Shown in pieces: positions 24,623 to 46,442 of a stretch of DNA of 64,000 nt (positions within the stretch are counted from its first letter, which is position 1; every line of letters begins with the position of its first letter). A model generated the notes under the pieces. That model saw only the letters and a list, made by a program, of their open reading frames with translations. It was not told the DNA's origin and did no database searches. A program made the position numbers and the translations under genes. The stretch comes from a virus (Duplodnaviria; Caudoviricetes): positions 32,001-96,000 of IMG/VR virus record IMGVR_UViG_3300011008_002750. One strand, given 5' to 3'.

Positions 24623-25303
24623 ATGAAAAAGAAAGCAGAAACACCAAAACCTATGTCTGAGTATGAAATTGATGCAATGTGGATGTCATATCGCTATGCA
24701 ATTGGCCGTCATACTATAGCATCTTGCATGCATGCTGGAGATATGATTAAAGAAATATATCATAGATTGGAAGAAGAAAGAATTCCATTTACCGTATATG
24801 ATATTAGGCGTGAAATTAATCAGCAGCTTGATTGGAATTTTAATTTTGGATTGAACTTATATGTTCAACAACCAGATTATGACCCAATTAAAGTATTAGT
24901 TGAATTTGCAAAACGTGATGATGTTAAAAAAGCTGGTGGAATTTTCAAATATTTAAGTAATAATAGGGTAGAGGTTTCTGTTAATTCTAATCATGAATAT
25001 GAATATAATTTTAGTGAGCCTATTCGTCCTAGTAGAGAATTATATGCTCATGAGTTAAATGATTTATTAGTATGGTATAATATGTCATGTGCACTTGACA
25101 AAGAAAATCATAAAATTGCAGTGACAGACTTTGAAGGAAAGGTTGAAGAGCATGAAGTTTTTGAATATGTAAAAATTCAACAATATATTGATGCTGAAGA
25201 AGATTTTGCAATTGATTATGTAGATATTAATGATTATTTGGAAAATCCATTTCTTCATAGGTGGATTGCAAAAGAATATATCAAAAAAATAAAACAAGCA
25301 TAA
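24623..25303 (+). CDS. hypothetical protein (MSYRYAIGR motif)
   Basis: 226-aa TAG-free ORF. Confidence 0.75.
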   Translation: MKKKAETPKPMSEYEIDAMWMSYRYAIGRHTIASCMHAGDMIKEIYHRLEEERIPFTVYDIRREINQQLDWNFNFGLNLYVQQPDYDPIKVLVEFAKRDDVKKAGGIFKYLSNNRVEVSVNSNHEYEYNFSEPIRPSRELYAHELNDLLVWYNMSCALDKENHKIAVTDFEGKVEEHEVFEYVKIQQYIDAEEDFAIDYVDINDYLENPFLHRWIAKEYIKKIKQA

Positions 25304-25342
25304 ATTTTTGTTATATAATAAAAGAAATTAAAAAGAAATCTA

Positions 25343-25570
25343 ATGGAAAATAATACAAATCCAAAACAACAATTATTTACTGAATTATTTCGTCCAAAAA
25401 CATTAGAACAAGCTGTAATAGTTCCGAGAATTAGAGAAGAATTATCTAAAGGGTTGGTAGACAATATTTTATTTAGTGGAAAACCTGGAAGTGGCAAATG
25501 TTTAGGTTATGATGAAAAAATAGATGTATATGTTGATGAAGAAACATATAATATTCTATTTAAAGAGTAA
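25343..25570 (+). CDS. gp44: clamp loader gp44 N-extein + 23-aa N-intein
   Basis: FRPKTL..LFSGKPGSGK followed by CLGYDEKID (intein block A), then a true TAA. Confidence 0.85.
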   Translation: MENNTNPKQQLFTELFRPKTLEQAVIVPRIREELSKGLVDNILFSGKPGSGKCLGYDEKIDVYVDEETYNILFKE

Positions 25571-25633
25571 ATGTGATTTTTTTCTTTCCACATCCAAGAT
25601 AAATATAATATAAAATATTATTTTATTAAAGAT

Positions 25634-27028
25634 ATGGAAGAAAAATATATTATTTTTAGAGATTTACCATTATTATATATGCTAAAAAATGAAATAGTAT
25701 AGTAGTTAGAAAAATATAATATAATTACTATATATGATTTTTCTATTGCAGATTTAGTTAATAATAATGTTAAATCTTTTTATATATCTAATAATAAATT
25801 TGAAGAACGTAAATATCCGCATTCAACTTGGTGTAGATATAATAAAAAATGTAAATAGTATATAACATTTGATACATATAATTTATTATATAATAATTAT
25901 TTTTATATAAAAGATAATATTATATAGTTTAGTAATATTAAAGATTATCCAAATGAACTTAGAAAGCTTACTGCTATATTAAGTCATGATAATTGCATTA
26001 ATACAGTTAATAATACATTTCAATATTTAAAAAATAATAATTTATTAAAATTTGAAAATAATATTATTATATGTGATTGTAAAGAATTTGTAAAAACTTA
26101 TAGAGCAATTGCAGATCATCCTTTATGGTTTATAGGTAATAATGAAAATATAAATTATAATAATAAAGAAAATTTATCAAATATACAAAAATTTTTAATA
26201 GATGGTGGAAATATTAGAGATATTACACCTGATTCAATTTTATGTATAAAATGGTGGTTAGCCCGAGGATGGGATGAAAATTATGCTAAACAAAAAATAT
26301 CAGAACTTCAAAGTAAAAATTCATTAAAATATTAGAATAAACGAGAACAAAATCCAGAATAGTATAAAGACATATAGAAAAATCAAATTGGTTATTGGAT
26401 AAAGTTAGGTTATTCTGAATAGGAAGCTAAAGAAAAAGTTAAAGAAAGACAATAGACATTTACATTAGAAAAATGTATTCAAAGATATGGTGAAATTGAA
26501 GGGCGGAAAAAATTCGAAGAGCGCTAGAAAAAATGGTAGAATACATTATAGTCTAAAGATGATTATATTGAAGTAATAATAAAAAGGTGTTCTCATTCAT
26601 TTTATTCAAATATATCTTAGGAATTATTTGATAAATTATATTAGTTATTACAAGAAAATAATATAAATTGCAATGTTTATTATCATAATTTAAATCATGA
26701 ATGGGGATTTGGAATTAAAAAGCACGGTGGAGTTTTATATGATTTTGTTATTCCTGAATTAAAATATGCAATAGAATTTAATGGAAATAGATTTCATCCA
26801 AATAAAGAAAAATTATCTAAAGAAGAATTTAAAAATTGGACAAATCCTTGGGGAGTTACCGCTAAAGAACAATATAAACATGATATGTTTAAAAATAATG
26901 CAATAATTAATAAGGGTTTTACTTTAGATATTATTTGGGAAGATGAATATTTAGAAAACAAAGATAAAATTTTAAATATAATATTAAACAGAATTAAACA
27001 AATATATAATGGCACAAAAATTAGTTAA
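25634..27028 (+). CDS. free-standing Vsr/DUF559-like (PD-(D/E)XK) homing endonuclease, 464 aa
   Basis: Open with TAG=Q (missed by track); YWIKLGYSE/KCIQRYG repeats; YDF..AIEFNGNRFH..D..K..GFTLDIIWEDE. Confidence 0.8.
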
Positions 27029-28238
27029 AGTTAATATTTCTATTGGAGAGTTATTTGATAAACTTAATTTAAATAATTCTAAATATGAAGAAACGCAACA
27101 TTCTAAATATAAAGTTTATATAGAAAATGTTGATGGAGAAATTGTTCCTATTTTAGGATATGTTAAAAAACGTGTAAATTTATGTAAGTATACATATAAA
27201 GCCGTAGCAAATGATAATGTTTATACATTAACATGTAGTGATAAACATATTCTTATTGATGAATATGGAAAAAATTGTTTAGCTAAAGATGCAAATTATT
27301 GTCAAAATATATATGATGGCAAATTAGAAAAAATTAATGAAGAAGTACTAGGTGAAGGCGATGCATATGATATTGCTATAAAGGCACCACATTTATATTT
27401 TACATCTAATGGAATTATTCATCATAATACTACTTTAACTCGTATCCTTGCATCTGAATGTGATGACCCACTTTATATTAATGCATCTTTGGAACGCGGC
27501 ATTGACACTATTCGTGAAAAGATTATTAGTTATGCTTCATCTTCATCATTATGGGGTGGTGAAGAAAAACTTAAAGTTATTATTCTTGAGGAGTGCGACA
27601 ATTTGACAAATGACGCTTGGTCAGCTCTTCGTGCAACTATTGAACAATTCCATAGAACAACTCGATTTATTGGAAACTGCAACTATATTGAAAAAATTCC
27701 AGAGCCAATTCAATCACGTTTCAATTGCATCCCAATTGAACCAATTAATCAAGAGGAAGAAGCATATTTGTTAAATGGTTTTACTGAGAGAGCTAAATTA
27801 ATTTTGAATGCGTGCCATATCACTTATAAAGACGAGGATGTTGAGAAATTTGTGAAGGCAGATTTTCCAGATATGCGGTCAATCATTAAAAAGATTCAAC
27901 AATTATATACAAGAGGCATTACAGAATTAACTCCTGCAACATTAGGGACAACTTTTGACTGTGGACAATTATTCAATATAATTATGACTCCCGGCAACCC
28001 TACAGAGAATTATAAAGCTTTAGTAGCAGATTGGTCAACAAAAGCTGAAGATGGGTTATTGATGCTTGGACAACAATTCCCAAATTATATTCAGACGGTT
28101 TGTCCAGATAGAATAAATAAATTACCAATGGTTATTATAACCATTTGTGAATATCAATCTCAACTTCATTATGCAATTGACAAATTTATTGTTTTGTTGG
28201 CATTGATATATAAATTACAAAATATTATGAATAGTTAA
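27009..28238 (+). CDS. gp44: 140-aa C-intein + clamp loader gp44 C-extein
   Basis: TCSDKH (block B), YDIAI..HLYFTSNGIIHHN|T then INASLERGID, ILEECD, CNY, QSRF AAA+/RFC motifs. Confidence 0.9.
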   Translation: MAQKLVKVNISIGELFDKLNLNNSKYEETQHSKYKVYIENVDGEIVPILGYVKKRVNLCKYTYKAVANDNVYTLTCSDKHILIDEYGKNCLAKDANYCQNIYDGKLEKINEEVLGEGDAYDIAIKAPHLYFTSNGIIHHNTTLTRILASECDDPLYINASLERGIDTIREKIISYASSSSLWGGEEKLKVIILEECDNLTNDAWSALRATIEQFHRTTRFIGNCNYIEKIPEPIQSRFNCIPIEPINQEEEAYLLNGFTERAKLILNACHITYKDEDVEKFVKADFPDMRSIIKKIQQLYTRGITELTPATLGTTFDCGQLFNIIMTPGNPTENYKALVADWSTKAEDGLLMLGQQFPNYIQTVCPDRINKLPMVIITICEYQSQLHYAIDKFIVLLALIYKLQNIMNS

Positions 28239-45164: not shown

Positions 45165-46442
45165 ATGAATGAAAAAGAGTATATAGAAGATTATAATTTA
45201 TTAAACGATGAATATATATTGAGTGTATTTATTAATAATGGTAAATTCCTTATTAGACGATATGATTCATTTTTAAATAAGCATGATGCTATTAAAAAAT
45301 ATATTGAAAATAGATATTCAGATTCTCAATCTATATAGGAAACATTATATAGAATGATTAATAATATTGAAATCCGCCCAATATGTAAAAGTTGTGGTAA
45401 ACCGGTTAGCTTTAATGGTTATAAAGGGGGTTTCTCTATATTTTGTTGTTCAAAATGTGCATCAAATGATCCAGAAGTAAAGCAAAAAGTAATGCAAACG
45501 TCTTTAATAAAATATAATACATTATATCCTAGCTAGAATAAAGAAGTTAAACAAAAATAGTCAAAAACAATAAATAGTAAATCAATTGAATAGAAAAAGT
45601 AGGCAAGTAATAAAGTAAAAAAGACTAAATTATTAAAATATGGTGATGAAAATTATAATAATCATGAAAAAACATCTTAGACCAAATTATTAAAATATGG
45701 TAATGAAAATTATAATAATTCAGAAAAATAGAAATAGACATGCATTGCTAACAATGGAGGTATTGGATTTTAGTCAGAAAAAATAAAAGAAAAATATATT
45801 AAAACTTGTTAGTAGTTATATGGATGTGACGATGGAAGTAAATCTCAAATAGCTATTAATAAATTTAAAACTACATGGAAATCAAAAACAACAGAAGAAG
45901 TTGCAAATATAGTTAAAAAACAACAAAATACATGTTTACTATTATATAATGAAACAAGCTATACTAAAACACTAGAATATCGTAAATTTGTTTCTAATAT
46001 GGTATCATCACAAGAATATTAGGAACATCAATTATATATTAAAAAATTAAGAGGAACAGTTAATTCATCAAAAGTAGAATAGCAATTTAAAGAATATCTA
46101 GAACAAAATTATCCAAATGATTTTGAATATCAATATAGATCAGAATTATATCCATTTAATTGTGATTTTTACATAAAGTCATTAGATTTATATATTGAAA
46201 TAAATGGTTCTTGGACACATGGTGGTCATCCATTTGATGAAAATAATTAGGAAGATATAGATAAATTAAATTTATGGAAATCTAAAAATACATAGTATTT
46301 CAATAATGCTATTAATACATGGACTATTAGAGATGTCAAAAAACGAAATATGTCAAAAGAAAATAATTTAAATTATTTAGAAATATTTACAAAATATGCA
46401 GATGAAGCAATAAAACAATTTAATGAATATATAAAACATTAA
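45165..46442 (+). CDS. modular Vsr-like endonuclease B (intact, 425 aa)
   Basis: CKSC..CCSKC, KTKLLKYG repeats; C-terminal domain nearly identical to A; open with TAG=Q. Confidence 0.8.

What the first reader, a model, noticed from the sequence alone, without database searches (positions are those of the whole stretch)
25343..28238. Clamp loader fractured by an atypically split intein with a 23-aa N-fragment
Seen: the Walker A GSGK is followed by only CLGYDEKIDVYVDEETYNILFKE and a TAA, which recoding cannot read through. The other 140 intein residues (blocks B, F, G, HN|T) begin a separate ORF 1.4 kb downstream, with a 464-aa Vsr-like nuclease between. IntN is acidic (7 D/E) and IntC starts basic. 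Known: fractured phage genes are rejoined by protein trans-splicing; most split inteins have a long IntN, and short-IntN ones are rare and useful for protein labelling. Inference: a new short-IntN, Thr+1 split intein in gp44.
Basis: partly seen in the sequence, partly recalled or inferred. Interest (0 to 1): 0.85.

Follow-up and report, generated by a model that had tools for sequence, protein, structure and literature searches.

The report
Split-intein clamp loader in Lak-like phage
A giant gut phage carries its essential DNA-replication clamp loader as two genes, cut inside the ATP-binding loop by a self-splicing protein element whose first piece is only 23 residues long, with a selfish nuclease gene between the halves. 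It is a real, well-conserved new example of a known, rare and biotechnologically useful kind of element.

Summary
The window comes from a Lak-like megaphage that reads TAG as an amino acid.

**Layout**
- ORF 25343-25570 holds clamp-loader residues 1-52, ending in Walker A GSGK, then a 23-aa IntN and a TAA stop.
- ORF 25634-27028 is a 464-aa Vsr-like homing endonuclease. It is open only if its 14 in-frame TAG codons are read as Gln.
- ORF 27009-28238 holds a 140-aa IntC ending in HHN, then Thr+1 and clamp-loader residues 53-321.

**Evidence that it is a working split intein**
- Relatives 96-98% identical in the C-terminal clamp-loader part have an uninterrupted gene reading GSGKTTLTR.
- Other phages carry a contiguous mini-intein at the same site. 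It models confidently as a HINT fold.
- At least ten independent contigs repeat the layout of short N gene, nuclease gene and IntC gene.
- IntC is under purifying selection (dN/dS 0.10), and the catalytic residues are invariant.

Protein trans-splicing is therefore the best explanation (about 0.85). It has not been shown experimentally.

**Wider picture**
- A profile search places this intein in a large family of inteins in the Walker A loop of P-loop ATPases. 134 of 170 proteins examined start at the same split point.
- Its parts match the "fractured genes" of Dassa et al. 2009 and the atypically split inteins AceL-TerL, GOS-TerL, VidaL and PolB16.
- I class it as a new member of a known kind.
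- This scan has already flagged the same kind on other DNA (ClpB, uvsW, gp46, ClpC, uvsX).

The parts
25343..25498 (+). N-extein: clamp-loader (gp44-like) residues 1-52, ending in Walker A ...GKPGSGK
   Evidence: PHROG 168 positions 3-55 match. The 52 residues are identical to the intein-less relative L004. DNA identity to L004 ends exactly after the Lys codon at 25498.
25499..25570 (+). IntN: 23 aa (Cys1, beta1-beta2, then an amphipathic helix), plus the TAA stop at 25568-25570
   Evidence: Block A pattern C-L-x-x-D-E-x-I-x-V-Y-V followed by a helix. It aligns with the IntN of 7 other split loci and with the N-terminus of 2 contiguous inteins. In the model of the contiguous homologue the equivalent residues form strands 2-3 and 7-12 and helix 14-20.
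25563..25657 (+). Predicted RNA hairpin that pairs the endonuclease start codon (25634). It contains the shared motif TTCTTTCC..CC(A/T)G at 25582-25598.
   Evidence: Predicted free energy -19.4 kcal/mol, z -3.3 against shuffles. Hairpins over the endonuclease ATG also occur in L020 (z -7.4), L013 (-5.2) and L011 (-2.9); L015 is weak (-1.4) and L018 has none. This is prediction only.
25634..27028 (+). Free-standing Vsr-like homing endonuclease gene, 464 aa with TAG read as Gln (14 in-frame TAG)
   Evidence: Open only under TAG=Q. PHROG 22677 matches at 1.9e-19. Homologues sit in the same position in 8 other loci with the motifs D-F...IEFxGxxxH...D...K...W invariant. A family profile hits Vsr (1odg, 1vsr, 1cw0) first, with the catalytic residues aligned (E 0.27). 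Fold hits are AbaSI, I-Bth0305I and Vsr. dN/dS is 0.35.
27009..27428 (+). IntC: 140 aa carrying blocks B, F and G and ending in His-His-Asn. Its start overlaps the endonuclease 3' end by 20 nt.
   Evidence: Invariant H80, D121, H139 and N140 across 19 homologues. The family profile hits the gp41-1 and Npu DnaE inteins in the PDB. dN/dS is 0.096 against L015. The contiguous homologue models with pLDDT 93.9, and its 26 best-ranked PDB matches are all inteins.
27429..28238 (+). C-extein: Thr+1 and clamp-loader residues 53-321, plus the stop codon
   Evidence: PHROG 168 positions 56-311 match at 3.9e-42. It is 96-98% identical to the uninterrupted genes in L003-L005 and 56-59% identical to Prevotella phage Lak.

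Best explanation
A mobile cassette (IntN, a Vsr-like homing endonuclease gene, IntC) sits in the Walker A codons (GSGK|TTLTR) of the clamp-loader gene of a Lak-like, TAG-recoded megaphage.

**Proposed mechanism (inferred)**
1. The two clamp-loader halves are translated separately. Neither contains a TAG codon.
2. The 23-aa IntN docks into the 140-aa IntC to complete a class-1 HINT fold. IntN supplies two canonical strands plus a family-specific amphipathic helix.
3. Cys1, the block B His, the block F Asp, His-Asn and Thr+1 carry out protein trans-splicing.
4. The product is a 321-aa clamp loader with an intact P-loop, identical at the junction to the intein-less alleles.

**The endonuclease (inferred)**
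- It drives spread of the cassette into empty alleles.
- Its translation appears restrained by a hairpin over its start codon and by its 14 TAG codons, which need the phage suppressor tRNA.

**Shown versus inferred**
- Shown: the anatomy, the homology, the empty and contiguous alleles, the selection, and the fold of a contiguous homologue.
- Inferred: splicing activity, homing activity and the timing of endonuclease expression.
For: 1. **Exact break.** The two fragments match PHROG 168 positions 3-55 and 56-311. 52 + 269 = 321 aa, which equals the uninterrupted gene in L005.
2. **Empty alleles.** L003-L005 are 96-98% identical in the C-extein and read GSGK(T/S)TLTR. DNA homology to L004 stops at the Lys codon.
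3. **Contiguous mini-inteins at the same site.** They occur in LR756508, P0015 and P0016. The P0015 intein models with pLDDT 93.9, with a confidence dip exactly at the split site, and its best-ranked PDB matches are inteins.
4. **Repeated layout.** 22 homologues of IntC were found, most starting at the same residue. The layout of short N ORF ending GK+Cys, endonuclease, then overlapping IntC ORF recurs in L011, L012, L013, L015, L018, L020 and L021. L010 and L016 show the endonuclease and overlapping IntC ORF but run off the contig before the N ORF.
5. **Split without an endonuclease.** In L022 only an unrelated 85-aa ORF lies between the halves, yet the gene stays split.
6. **Conserved catalytic residues.** H80, D121, H139, N140 and T+1 are invariant in 19 sequences, and Cys1 is present in all 8 IntN sequences seen.
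7. **Selection.** dN/dS is 0.096 for IntC, 0.051 for the C-extein and 0.35 for the endonuclease.
8. **Prevalence.** One split allele cluster (P0004) has 437 member sequences. Lak genomes hold a single clamp-loader locus each.
9. **Code usage.** The record carries a tRNA(CUA). TAG makes up 0.56 of Gln codons in the endonuclease and 0 of 18 in the clamp-loader halves (Fisher 6e-5).
Against: - No experiment shows splicing. There are no transcript or peptide data.
- The 23-codon IntN is too short for a selection test (dN/dS 1.09 on 23 codons).
- The window's own fragments were not modelled as a complex. The fold evidence comes from a contiguous homologue whose IntC part is 53% identical.
- Charge complementarity between IntN and IntC is not consistent across the family.
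- The record is only 24% complete by CheckV's estimate. A second, intact clamp-loader gene elsewhere in this genome cannot be excluded.
Confidence: 0.85

Rival explanations
1. The intein halves no longer splice. They serve only as non-covalent association domains that hold the two clamp-loader pieces together, as in the fragmented NrdA of phage Aeh1.
For: A precedent exists for a fractured phage gene assembled without splicing (abstract of PMC3045599, listed). Splicing was not tested here.
Against: - The break lies inside the P-loop (GK|T), so a non-ligated complex would lack a continuous Walker A.
- All splicing residues (Cys1, block B His, block F Asp, His-Asn, Thr+1) are invariant across relatives whose exteins are only 27-35% identical.
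- Mere docking would not require those residues.
Confidence: 0.06
2. The 1.4-kb insert is a self-splicing intron carrying an endonuclease ORF. RNA splicing restores a contiguous intein, which then splices in cis.
For: Endonuclease-bearing group I introns are common in large gut phages (PMC12880540). Vsr-like endonucleases also occur in group I introns (PMC2677866).
Against: - No Rfam family matches 25300-27500 at E up to 1.
- The endonuclease ORF fills all but 63 nt of the insert and overlaps the IntC start codon.
- Every split relative keeps a stop codon after IntN and a start codon at the same IntC position.
- L022 stays split with only an 85-aa ORF between the halves.
Confidence: 0.03
3. 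The gene is broken: a recent selfish insertion has killed this allele, or the layout is an assembly artefact, and no functional clamp loader is made from it.
For: The record is a 24%-complete metagenomic fragment. Close relatives without the insert exist.
Against: - The same layout is assembled independently in many samples.
- IntC has dN/dS 0.096.
- Split allele clusters have up to 437 member sequences.
- No second clamp-loader gene occurs in the 120-kb record, and Lak genomes have a single one each.
Confidence: 0.03

Closest known systems
Fractured genes of Dassa, London, Stoddard, Schueler-Furman and Pietrokovski 2009 (PMC2677866)
   Same: - A phage replication or repair gene is in two ORFs on one strand.
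- The split-intein halves abut a free-standing endonuclease gene.
- The endonuclease is of a Vsr-like family.
- A hairpin lies upstream of the endonuclease ORF.
- The endonuclease 3' end overlaps the IntC start: 20 bp here, 6-69 bp in that paper.
   Different: - A text search of that paper found no mention of 'clamp' or 'gp44'.
- Its characterised split inteins, such as gp41-1, have a long IntN.
- Here the break is about 23 residues into the intein.
- The endonuclease here is written with recoded TAG codons.
Natural atypically split inteins: VidaL (16-aa IntN) and PolB16 OarG (15 aa), split after strand beta2; AceL-TerL (25 aa) and GOS-TerL (37 aa), split after helix alpha1 (PMC13014065, PMC10189870)
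   Same: - A short IntN (23 aa) and a long IntC (140 aa).
- The break lies between strand beta2 and the strand before the canonical helix, as in VidaL and PolB16.
- VidaL and PolB16 are among the fold matches of the contiguous homologue.
   Different: - No sequence-level match to VidaL or PolB16.
- IntN carries an extra, family-conserved amphipathic helix after beta2.
- The nucleophile pair is Cys1/Thr+1.
- The host protein is a clamp loader, cut in Walker A.
gp41-1 split intein (PDB 6qaz)
   Same: It is the closest solved intein by sequence (profile E 7e-7). It also comes from a fractured phage gene.
   Different: gp41-1 is canonically split, with a long IntN and short IntC. It lies in a helicase.
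I-Bth0305I / Vsr-like (EDxHD) homing endonucleases (PMC3239194)
   Same: The C-terminal nuclease domain aligns its D, E, H and D motifs with Vsr. It matches the I-Bth0305I catalytic domain in fold, with TM 0.64-0.67 normalised to the target.
   Different: All matches are weak (E 0.02-0.6). The N-terminal 320 residues, which are helical repeats and probably bind DNA, have no match. Activity is untested.
Clamp-loader inteins of cyanobacterial DnaX and archaeal RFC (PMC4760082)
   Same: An intein in the ATPase domain of a clamp-loader subunit.
   Different: - As that paper describes them, those are inteins within a single gene, not split.
- The DnaX inteins sit after Walker B, and the RFC inteins occupy four points of their own.
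- No homology to them was tested here, apart from a weak profile hit to the Spl DnaX mini-intein (E 0.02).

Membership tests
Class-1 intein (HINT splicing domain) | Block A nucleophile (Cys/Ser) as first residue, directly after the N-extein | tested here: met
   Cys follows GSGK at 25499. Cys1 is present in all 8 IntN sequences and both contiguous forms.
Class-1 intein (HINT splicing domain) | Block B (T/S)xxH, block F Asp, block G His-Asn, and a Cys/Ser/Thr at +1 | tested here: met
   S77-D-K-H80, Y120-D121, H139-N140 and T141 are present. H80, D121, H139, N140 and T141 are invariant in 19 sequences.
Class-1 intein (HINT splicing domain) | HINT fold | tested here: met
   The contiguous homologue (L014 4160-4645) models with pLDDT 93.9. 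All of its 26 best-ranked PDB matches are inteins, E down to 6.6e-7. The window's own two-piece complex was not modelled.
Class-1 intein (HINT splicing domain) | In-frame insertion whose removal restores the host protein; empty alleles exist | tested here: met
   L003-L005 and Lak-A2 read GK(T/S)TLTR without an insert.
Class-1 intein (HINT splicing domain) | Protein splicing activity | not testable with these tools
   Needs expression and mass spectrometry.
Naturally split intein in a fractured gene (Dassa 2009) | Two separate ORFs on one strand, with a stop after IntN and a start codon at IntC | tested here: met
   TAA at 25568 and ATG at 27009, in different frames. Relatives conserve this.
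Naturally split intein in a fractured gene (Dassa 2009) | Free-standing endonuclease gene between the halves, overlapping the downstream ORF | tested here: met
   ORF 25634-27028 overlaps the IntC ORF by 20 nt. The same is seen in L010, L011, L013, L015, L016, L018 and L020.
Atypically split intein (short IntN) | IntN within or below the 15-37 aa range of natural examples, with blocks B, F and G all in IntC | tested here: met
   IntN is 23 aa and IntC is 140 aa carrying blocks B, F and G. The range comes from PMC13014065.
Atypically split intein (short IntN) | Sequence kinship with the characterised members (VidaL, PolB16, AceL-TerL/GOS-TerL, Cat) | tested here: inconclusive
   Family profiles do not hit VidaL or PolB16 in the PDB. 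The consensus CatC (6dsl) scores only E 0.0095-0.058. Fold similarity exists. This looks like a separate lineage of the same kind.
Vsr-like (I-Bth0305I type) homing endonuclease | Vsr-type catalytic core with a conserved Asp, an invariant Glu before the His, the His, and a second Asp | tested here: met
   D370, E381, H388 and D417 are invariant in 7 homologues. They align with DFV...HGCFWH...RD of Vsr.
Vsr-like (I-Bth0305I type) homing endonuclease | Statistically significant sequence or fold match to the family | tested here: inconclusive
   The best PDB sequence hits are Vsr at E 0.27. Foldseek gives AbaSI 0.02, I-Bth0305I 0.09 and Vsr 0.4. Pfam MTES_1575 is below its cut-off in 6 of 7 members. 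The hits are coherent but weak.
Vsr-like (I-Bth0305I type) homing endonuclease | Site-specific cleavage of the empty allele | not testable with these tools
   Needs an in vitro cleavage assay.
Group I/II intron | Match to a catalytic RNA core | tested here: not met
   No Rfam match in 25300-27500 at E up to 1.

The most novel reading that the evidence does not exclude
The endonuclease is written in the phage's late genetic code, and the essential early gene that it splits is not.

- TAG makes up 56% of the endonuclease's Gln codons, the highest share among the ORFs tallied in the window.
- Both clamp-loader halves have no TAG.
- A hairpin covers the endonuclease start codon.

On this reading the switch to TAG=Gln decoding, through the phage tRNA(CUA), would time homing to late infection. 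The split intein would let the early gene tolerate a late-coded selfish gene in its middle.

Separately, the element would be one tip of a large clade of inteins aimed at the Walker A loop. I did not find that clade described in the searchable literature. In it the short-IntN split is the majority state, and a conserved IntN helix may serve as an affinity handle.
Probability: 0.35. Interest if true: 0.6.

Novelty: new member of a known kind. Interest (0 to 1): 0.5.

Why it matters
- **Protein chemistry.** Natural split inteins with an IntN short enough for peptide synthesis are prized for protein labelling. The papers I read cite only a handful of them (IntN 15-37 aa).
  - This one adds a Cys1/Thr+1 example from a gut phage, so presumably adapted to about 37 C.
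  - Its IntN has 12 canonical residues plus a helix that may help the two pieces bind.
- **A large pool of candidates.** The census points to more than a hundred related natural candidates. They sit in at least nine Pfam-distinct types of P-loop ATPase.
- **Phage biology.** Lak-type megaphages can carry an essential replication gene in pieces. A selfish nuclease gene inside it has adopted the phage's recoded stop codon.
- **Annotation.** The two fragments should be annotated as one clamp loader, not as a pseudogene.

Tried and rejected
- **Rfam.** A search of 25300-27500 found nothing, so I set the intron reading aside.
- **Weak single-sequence hits.** Pfam found nothing for the 75-aa N fragment, and its intein model scored below cut-off on the C fragment. 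A search of the solved-structure sequences with IntC alone gave only marginal intein hits. Family profiles and a model of a contiguous homologue were needed.
- **A reading I dropped.** From LR756508 I first thought the IntN tail (DEETYNILFKE) was read-through into the inserted cassette. P0015 and P0016 show that the tail is a native, conserved helix of this intein lineage.
- **Charge complementarity.** Complementary charge between IntN and IntC as a general family rule is not supported.
- **Endonuclease fold.** The whole-protein model was mediocre (pLDDT 70), and Foldseek gave only weak though coherent Vsr-like hits.
- **Extein clustering.** Single-linkage BLAST clustering failed: 106 of the exteins, from Pfam-distinct families, fell into a single cluster, perhaps because some carry a second intein. 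I sampled 20 proteins with Pfam instead.
- **Tree.** A FastTree of 146 IntC domains gave 23 split/contiguous changes for 26 contiguous forms. They are scattered, but the tree is too weak to give a direction.
- **Papers not held.** The VidaL paper (PMC7275667) is not in the library. I recalled the AceL-TerL and GOS-TerL papers from memory and cited them through later papers. I did not see their genomic contexts.
Full report
**1. The observation**

The window has 27% G+C. ORFs of at least 100 codons cover 0.67 of it under table 11 and 1.04 (both strands summed) when TAG is read through. Many long genes have in-frame TAGs. The best protein matches are Prevotella phage Lak genomes at 56-59% identity. 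The same 120-kb record carries a tRNA with anticodon CUA. This is therefore a Lak-like megaphage that decodes TAG.

At the given coordinates the three ORFs are as described:
- 25343-25570 gives 75 aa.
- 25634-27028 gives 464 aa, but only with TAG read as a residue; it has 14 in-frame TAGs.
- 27009-28238 gives 409 aa.

PHROG 168 (clamp loader of DNA polymerase) aligns its positions 3-55 to the first ORF. It aligns positions 56-311 to residues 141-407 of the third ORF. The host gene is therefore cut exactly between Lys and Thr of its Walker A motif.

**2. It is an insertion**

Three IMG/VR contigs (L003-L005) encode clamp loaders 96-98% identical to the C-extein. They are uninterrupted and read ...GSGK(T/S)TLTR....
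- The 52 N-extein residues of L004 are identical to the window's.
- DNA homology to L004 stops at the Lys codon, 25498|25499.
- Lak-A2 also has an uninterrupted 324-aa gene.
- 52 + 269 residues give 321 aa, the length of the L005 protein.

**3. It is an intein**

The inserted residues carry Cys1, block B (S-D-K-H80), block F (Y-D121), block G (H139-N140) and Thr+1. In an alignment of 19 homologues whose exteins fall to 27-35% identity, H80, D121, H139, N140 and T141 are invariant.

Contiguous versions exist at the same site in LR756508, P0015 and P0016. The 162-aa intein of P0015 (L014) was modelled with a 9-row alignment and gives pLDDT 93.9. The only dip is at residues 21-30, which is where the window's intein is broken. 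Its 26 best-ranked Foldseek PDB matches are all inteins: Npu DnaE, gp41-1, Pho RadA, VidaL, and further down PolB16. By sequence profile the closest solved intein is gp41-1 (E 7e-7). VidaL and PolB16 are not detected.

**4. The split is natural and conserved**

A search with the IntC region found 22 proteins, most of 375-410 aa, that begin at the same intein position. I read the DNA around many of them.
- L011, L012, L013, L015, L018, L020 and L021 each show the full layout. A short ORF ends in a Walker A GK followed by Cys and 21-32 further residues and a stop. Then comes an endonuclease gene of 357-456 aa of one family, then an IntC ORF. The IntC ORF overlaps the endonuclease 3' end in all of them except L021.
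- L010 and L016 show the endonuclease and the overlapping IntC ORF, but the contig ends before the N ORF.
- The host is a clamp loader in most of these loci, a RadA/KaiC-like ATPase in L018, PhoH in L020 and a ClpB-type ATPase in L021.
- In L022 (RecA-like) the gene is still split, but only an 85-aa ORF lies between the halves. The split state therefore persists without the endonuclease.

Between the window and L015, dN/dS is 0.096 for IntC, 0.051 for the C-extein, 0.21 for the N-extein and 0.35 for the endonuclease. IntN has too few codons to judge. One split allele cluster has 437 member sequences. These facts argue against a dead gene or an assembly artefact.

**5. Where the break lies**

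In the model, IntN corresponds to strands 2-3 and 7-12 and a helix at 14-20. After the break come a strand (33-38) and the helix I-G-D-L-F (39-45). I equate that strand and helix with the strand and first helix of canonical inteins by comparing sequences from memory.

LR756508 lacks the first helix. The break therefore lies between beta2 and the next strand. PMC13014065 calls this the S1 position and assigns it to VidaL and PolB16. This lineage adds an amphipathic helix on the IntN side. That helix is conserved in all eight IntN sequences and in both contiguous forms. I propose, as inference, that it strengthens binding of a very short IntN.

**6. The endonuclease**

Seven homologues share the invariant residues D370, E381, G384, H388, D417, K420 and W435.
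- The family profile's best PDB hits are the three Vsr entries, with these residues aligned to the Vsr catalytic core, but only at E 0.27.
- The model has mean pLDDT 70 and is better in the C-terminal domain. It matches AbaSI, the I-Bth0305I catalytic domain (TM 0.64-0.67 normalised to the target), PvuRts1I and Vsr, all weakly.
- This fits the Vsr-like homing endonucleases of fractured genes, including the invariant Glu that Dassa et al. describe. Membership is only moderately supported.

At four of the ten TAG positions that align with standard-code homologues, those homologues have Gln. This is consistent with TAG=Gln.

**7. Regulation (inferred)**

A hairpin pairs the endonuclease start codon (z -3.3). 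Similar hairpins occur in L020, L013 and L011 but not clearly in L015 or L018. A motif TTCTTTCC..CC(A/T)G follows the IntN stop in four loci.

TAG makes up 0.56 of Gln codons in the endonuclease, the highest share among the 40 ORFs tallied in the window. It makes up 0 of 18 in the two clamp-loader halves (Fisher 6e-5). The bioRxiv preprint 10.1101/2021.08.26.457843 proposes that recoding can regulate late and lytic genes (title and abstract). On that view the endonuclease would be translated late.

**8. Rivals**
- RNA splicing: there is no Rfam hit, the ORF fills the insert, and the stop and start codons are conserved.
- Non-covalent assembly without splicing: this would not explain the invariant catalytic residues, and it would leave a discontinuous P-loop.
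- Dead gene or artefact: contradicted by selection and by recurrence in independent assemblies.

**9. Family census**

A profile of seven IntC sequences was searched against 1.84 billion representative proteins. It found 415 clusters at E up to 1e-3 and 136 at E up to 1e-10.
- Of the 170 proteins in hand, 134 start with IntC within the first eight residues, 34 have it internally and 2 match only partially. The residue at +1 is Thr in 133, Ser in 30 and Cys in 3.
- Twenty sampled exteins hit clamp-loader AAA, DnaB_C, PhoH, ResIII/DEAD helicase, RecA, AAA, AAA_5, AAA_2/ClpB and Terminase_6N.
- Contiguous forms are scattered over a quick tree.
- Caveat: 'split' in this census rests on gene calls. 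I verified it on DNA only for the loci listed in section 4.

**10. Comparison with what is known**
- The layout matches the fractured genes of Dassa et al. 2009.
- The short IntN matches the natural atypically split inteins, which have IntN of 15-37 aa.
- PolB16 OarG, from a sheep gut metagenome, has a 15-aa IntN.
- Known clamp-loader inteins, as described in PMC4760082, lie within single genes and at other sites.
- I found no paper on a split intein in a phage clamp loader or in Lak phages. Several key papers are not in the library.
- This scan has flagged the same kind on other DNA: ClpB, uvsW, gp46, ClpC and uvsX.

**Verdict**

This is a real, natural, atypically split class-1 intein and a new member of a known kind. 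Its interest lies in practical use, in the size of the family, and in the contrast in genetic code between the endonuclease and its host gene.

Noticed in passing
G000:C1:14467-14541 (same record, upstream of the window): A tRNA with anticodon CUA, which ARAGORN labels tRNA-Pyl. It is the likely TAG suppressor of this phage. Thirteen more tRNA genes cluster at 102-120 kb of the record.
   Followed up: partly
window 25582-25598; also L015, L011 and L020 just after the IntN stop codon: A shared DNA motif TTCTTTCC(N3-4)T(N)CC(A/T)G lies between the IntN stop and the endonuclease start. It forms the 5' arm of the hairpin over the endonuclease ATG. It may be a control element carried with the cassette.
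   Followed up: partly
L022:2463-4266: A RecA-like gene is split by the same intein family, but only an unrelated 85-aa ORF lies between the halves. The IntC ORF appears to start with TTG. On the same contig the DNA polymerase B gene is also in pieces (489, 37 and 338 aa).
   Followed up: partly
L018:2646-5128: The same cassette of split intein plus endonuclease sits in the Walker A of a RadA/KaiC-like ATPase. Its IntN is 33 aa and basic (net +4), and its IntC is acidic (net -7). This is the reverse of the window's IntN, which is acidic.
   Followed up: partly
window 24623-25303, compared with L004 upstream of 3845: The gene upstream of the clamp loader differs completely between the window and the relative L004, whose clamp-loader gene is otherwise nearly identical. 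The 226-aa ORF in the window has no family match.
   Followed up: no
window 45165-46442: A 425-aa ORF has 15 in-frame TAGs. Its TAG share of Gln codons is 0.54, second only to the intein-locus endonuclease. Another first-stage note calls it a modular endonuclease. It is not related to the 464-aa endonuclease by tblastn.
   Followed up: no
L016:2469-3743: A TnpB/OrfB_IS605 gene lies directly downstream of the split clamp loader in a related contig.
   Followed up: no
P0025 and P0053 (proteins): These C-fragment proteins start with this family's IntC and end with the N-terminal part of a second intein (Pfam Intein_splicing hit at residues 308-367). The host genes appear to be fractured twice.
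   Followed up: no
L014:151-585 (- strand) and L014:2628-3914: The contig with the contiguous clamp-loader intein holds two more intein-bearing ORFs. One is a 144-aa ORF ending in an intein N part. The other is a 428-aa protein with a C-terminal HINT domain.
   Followed up: no
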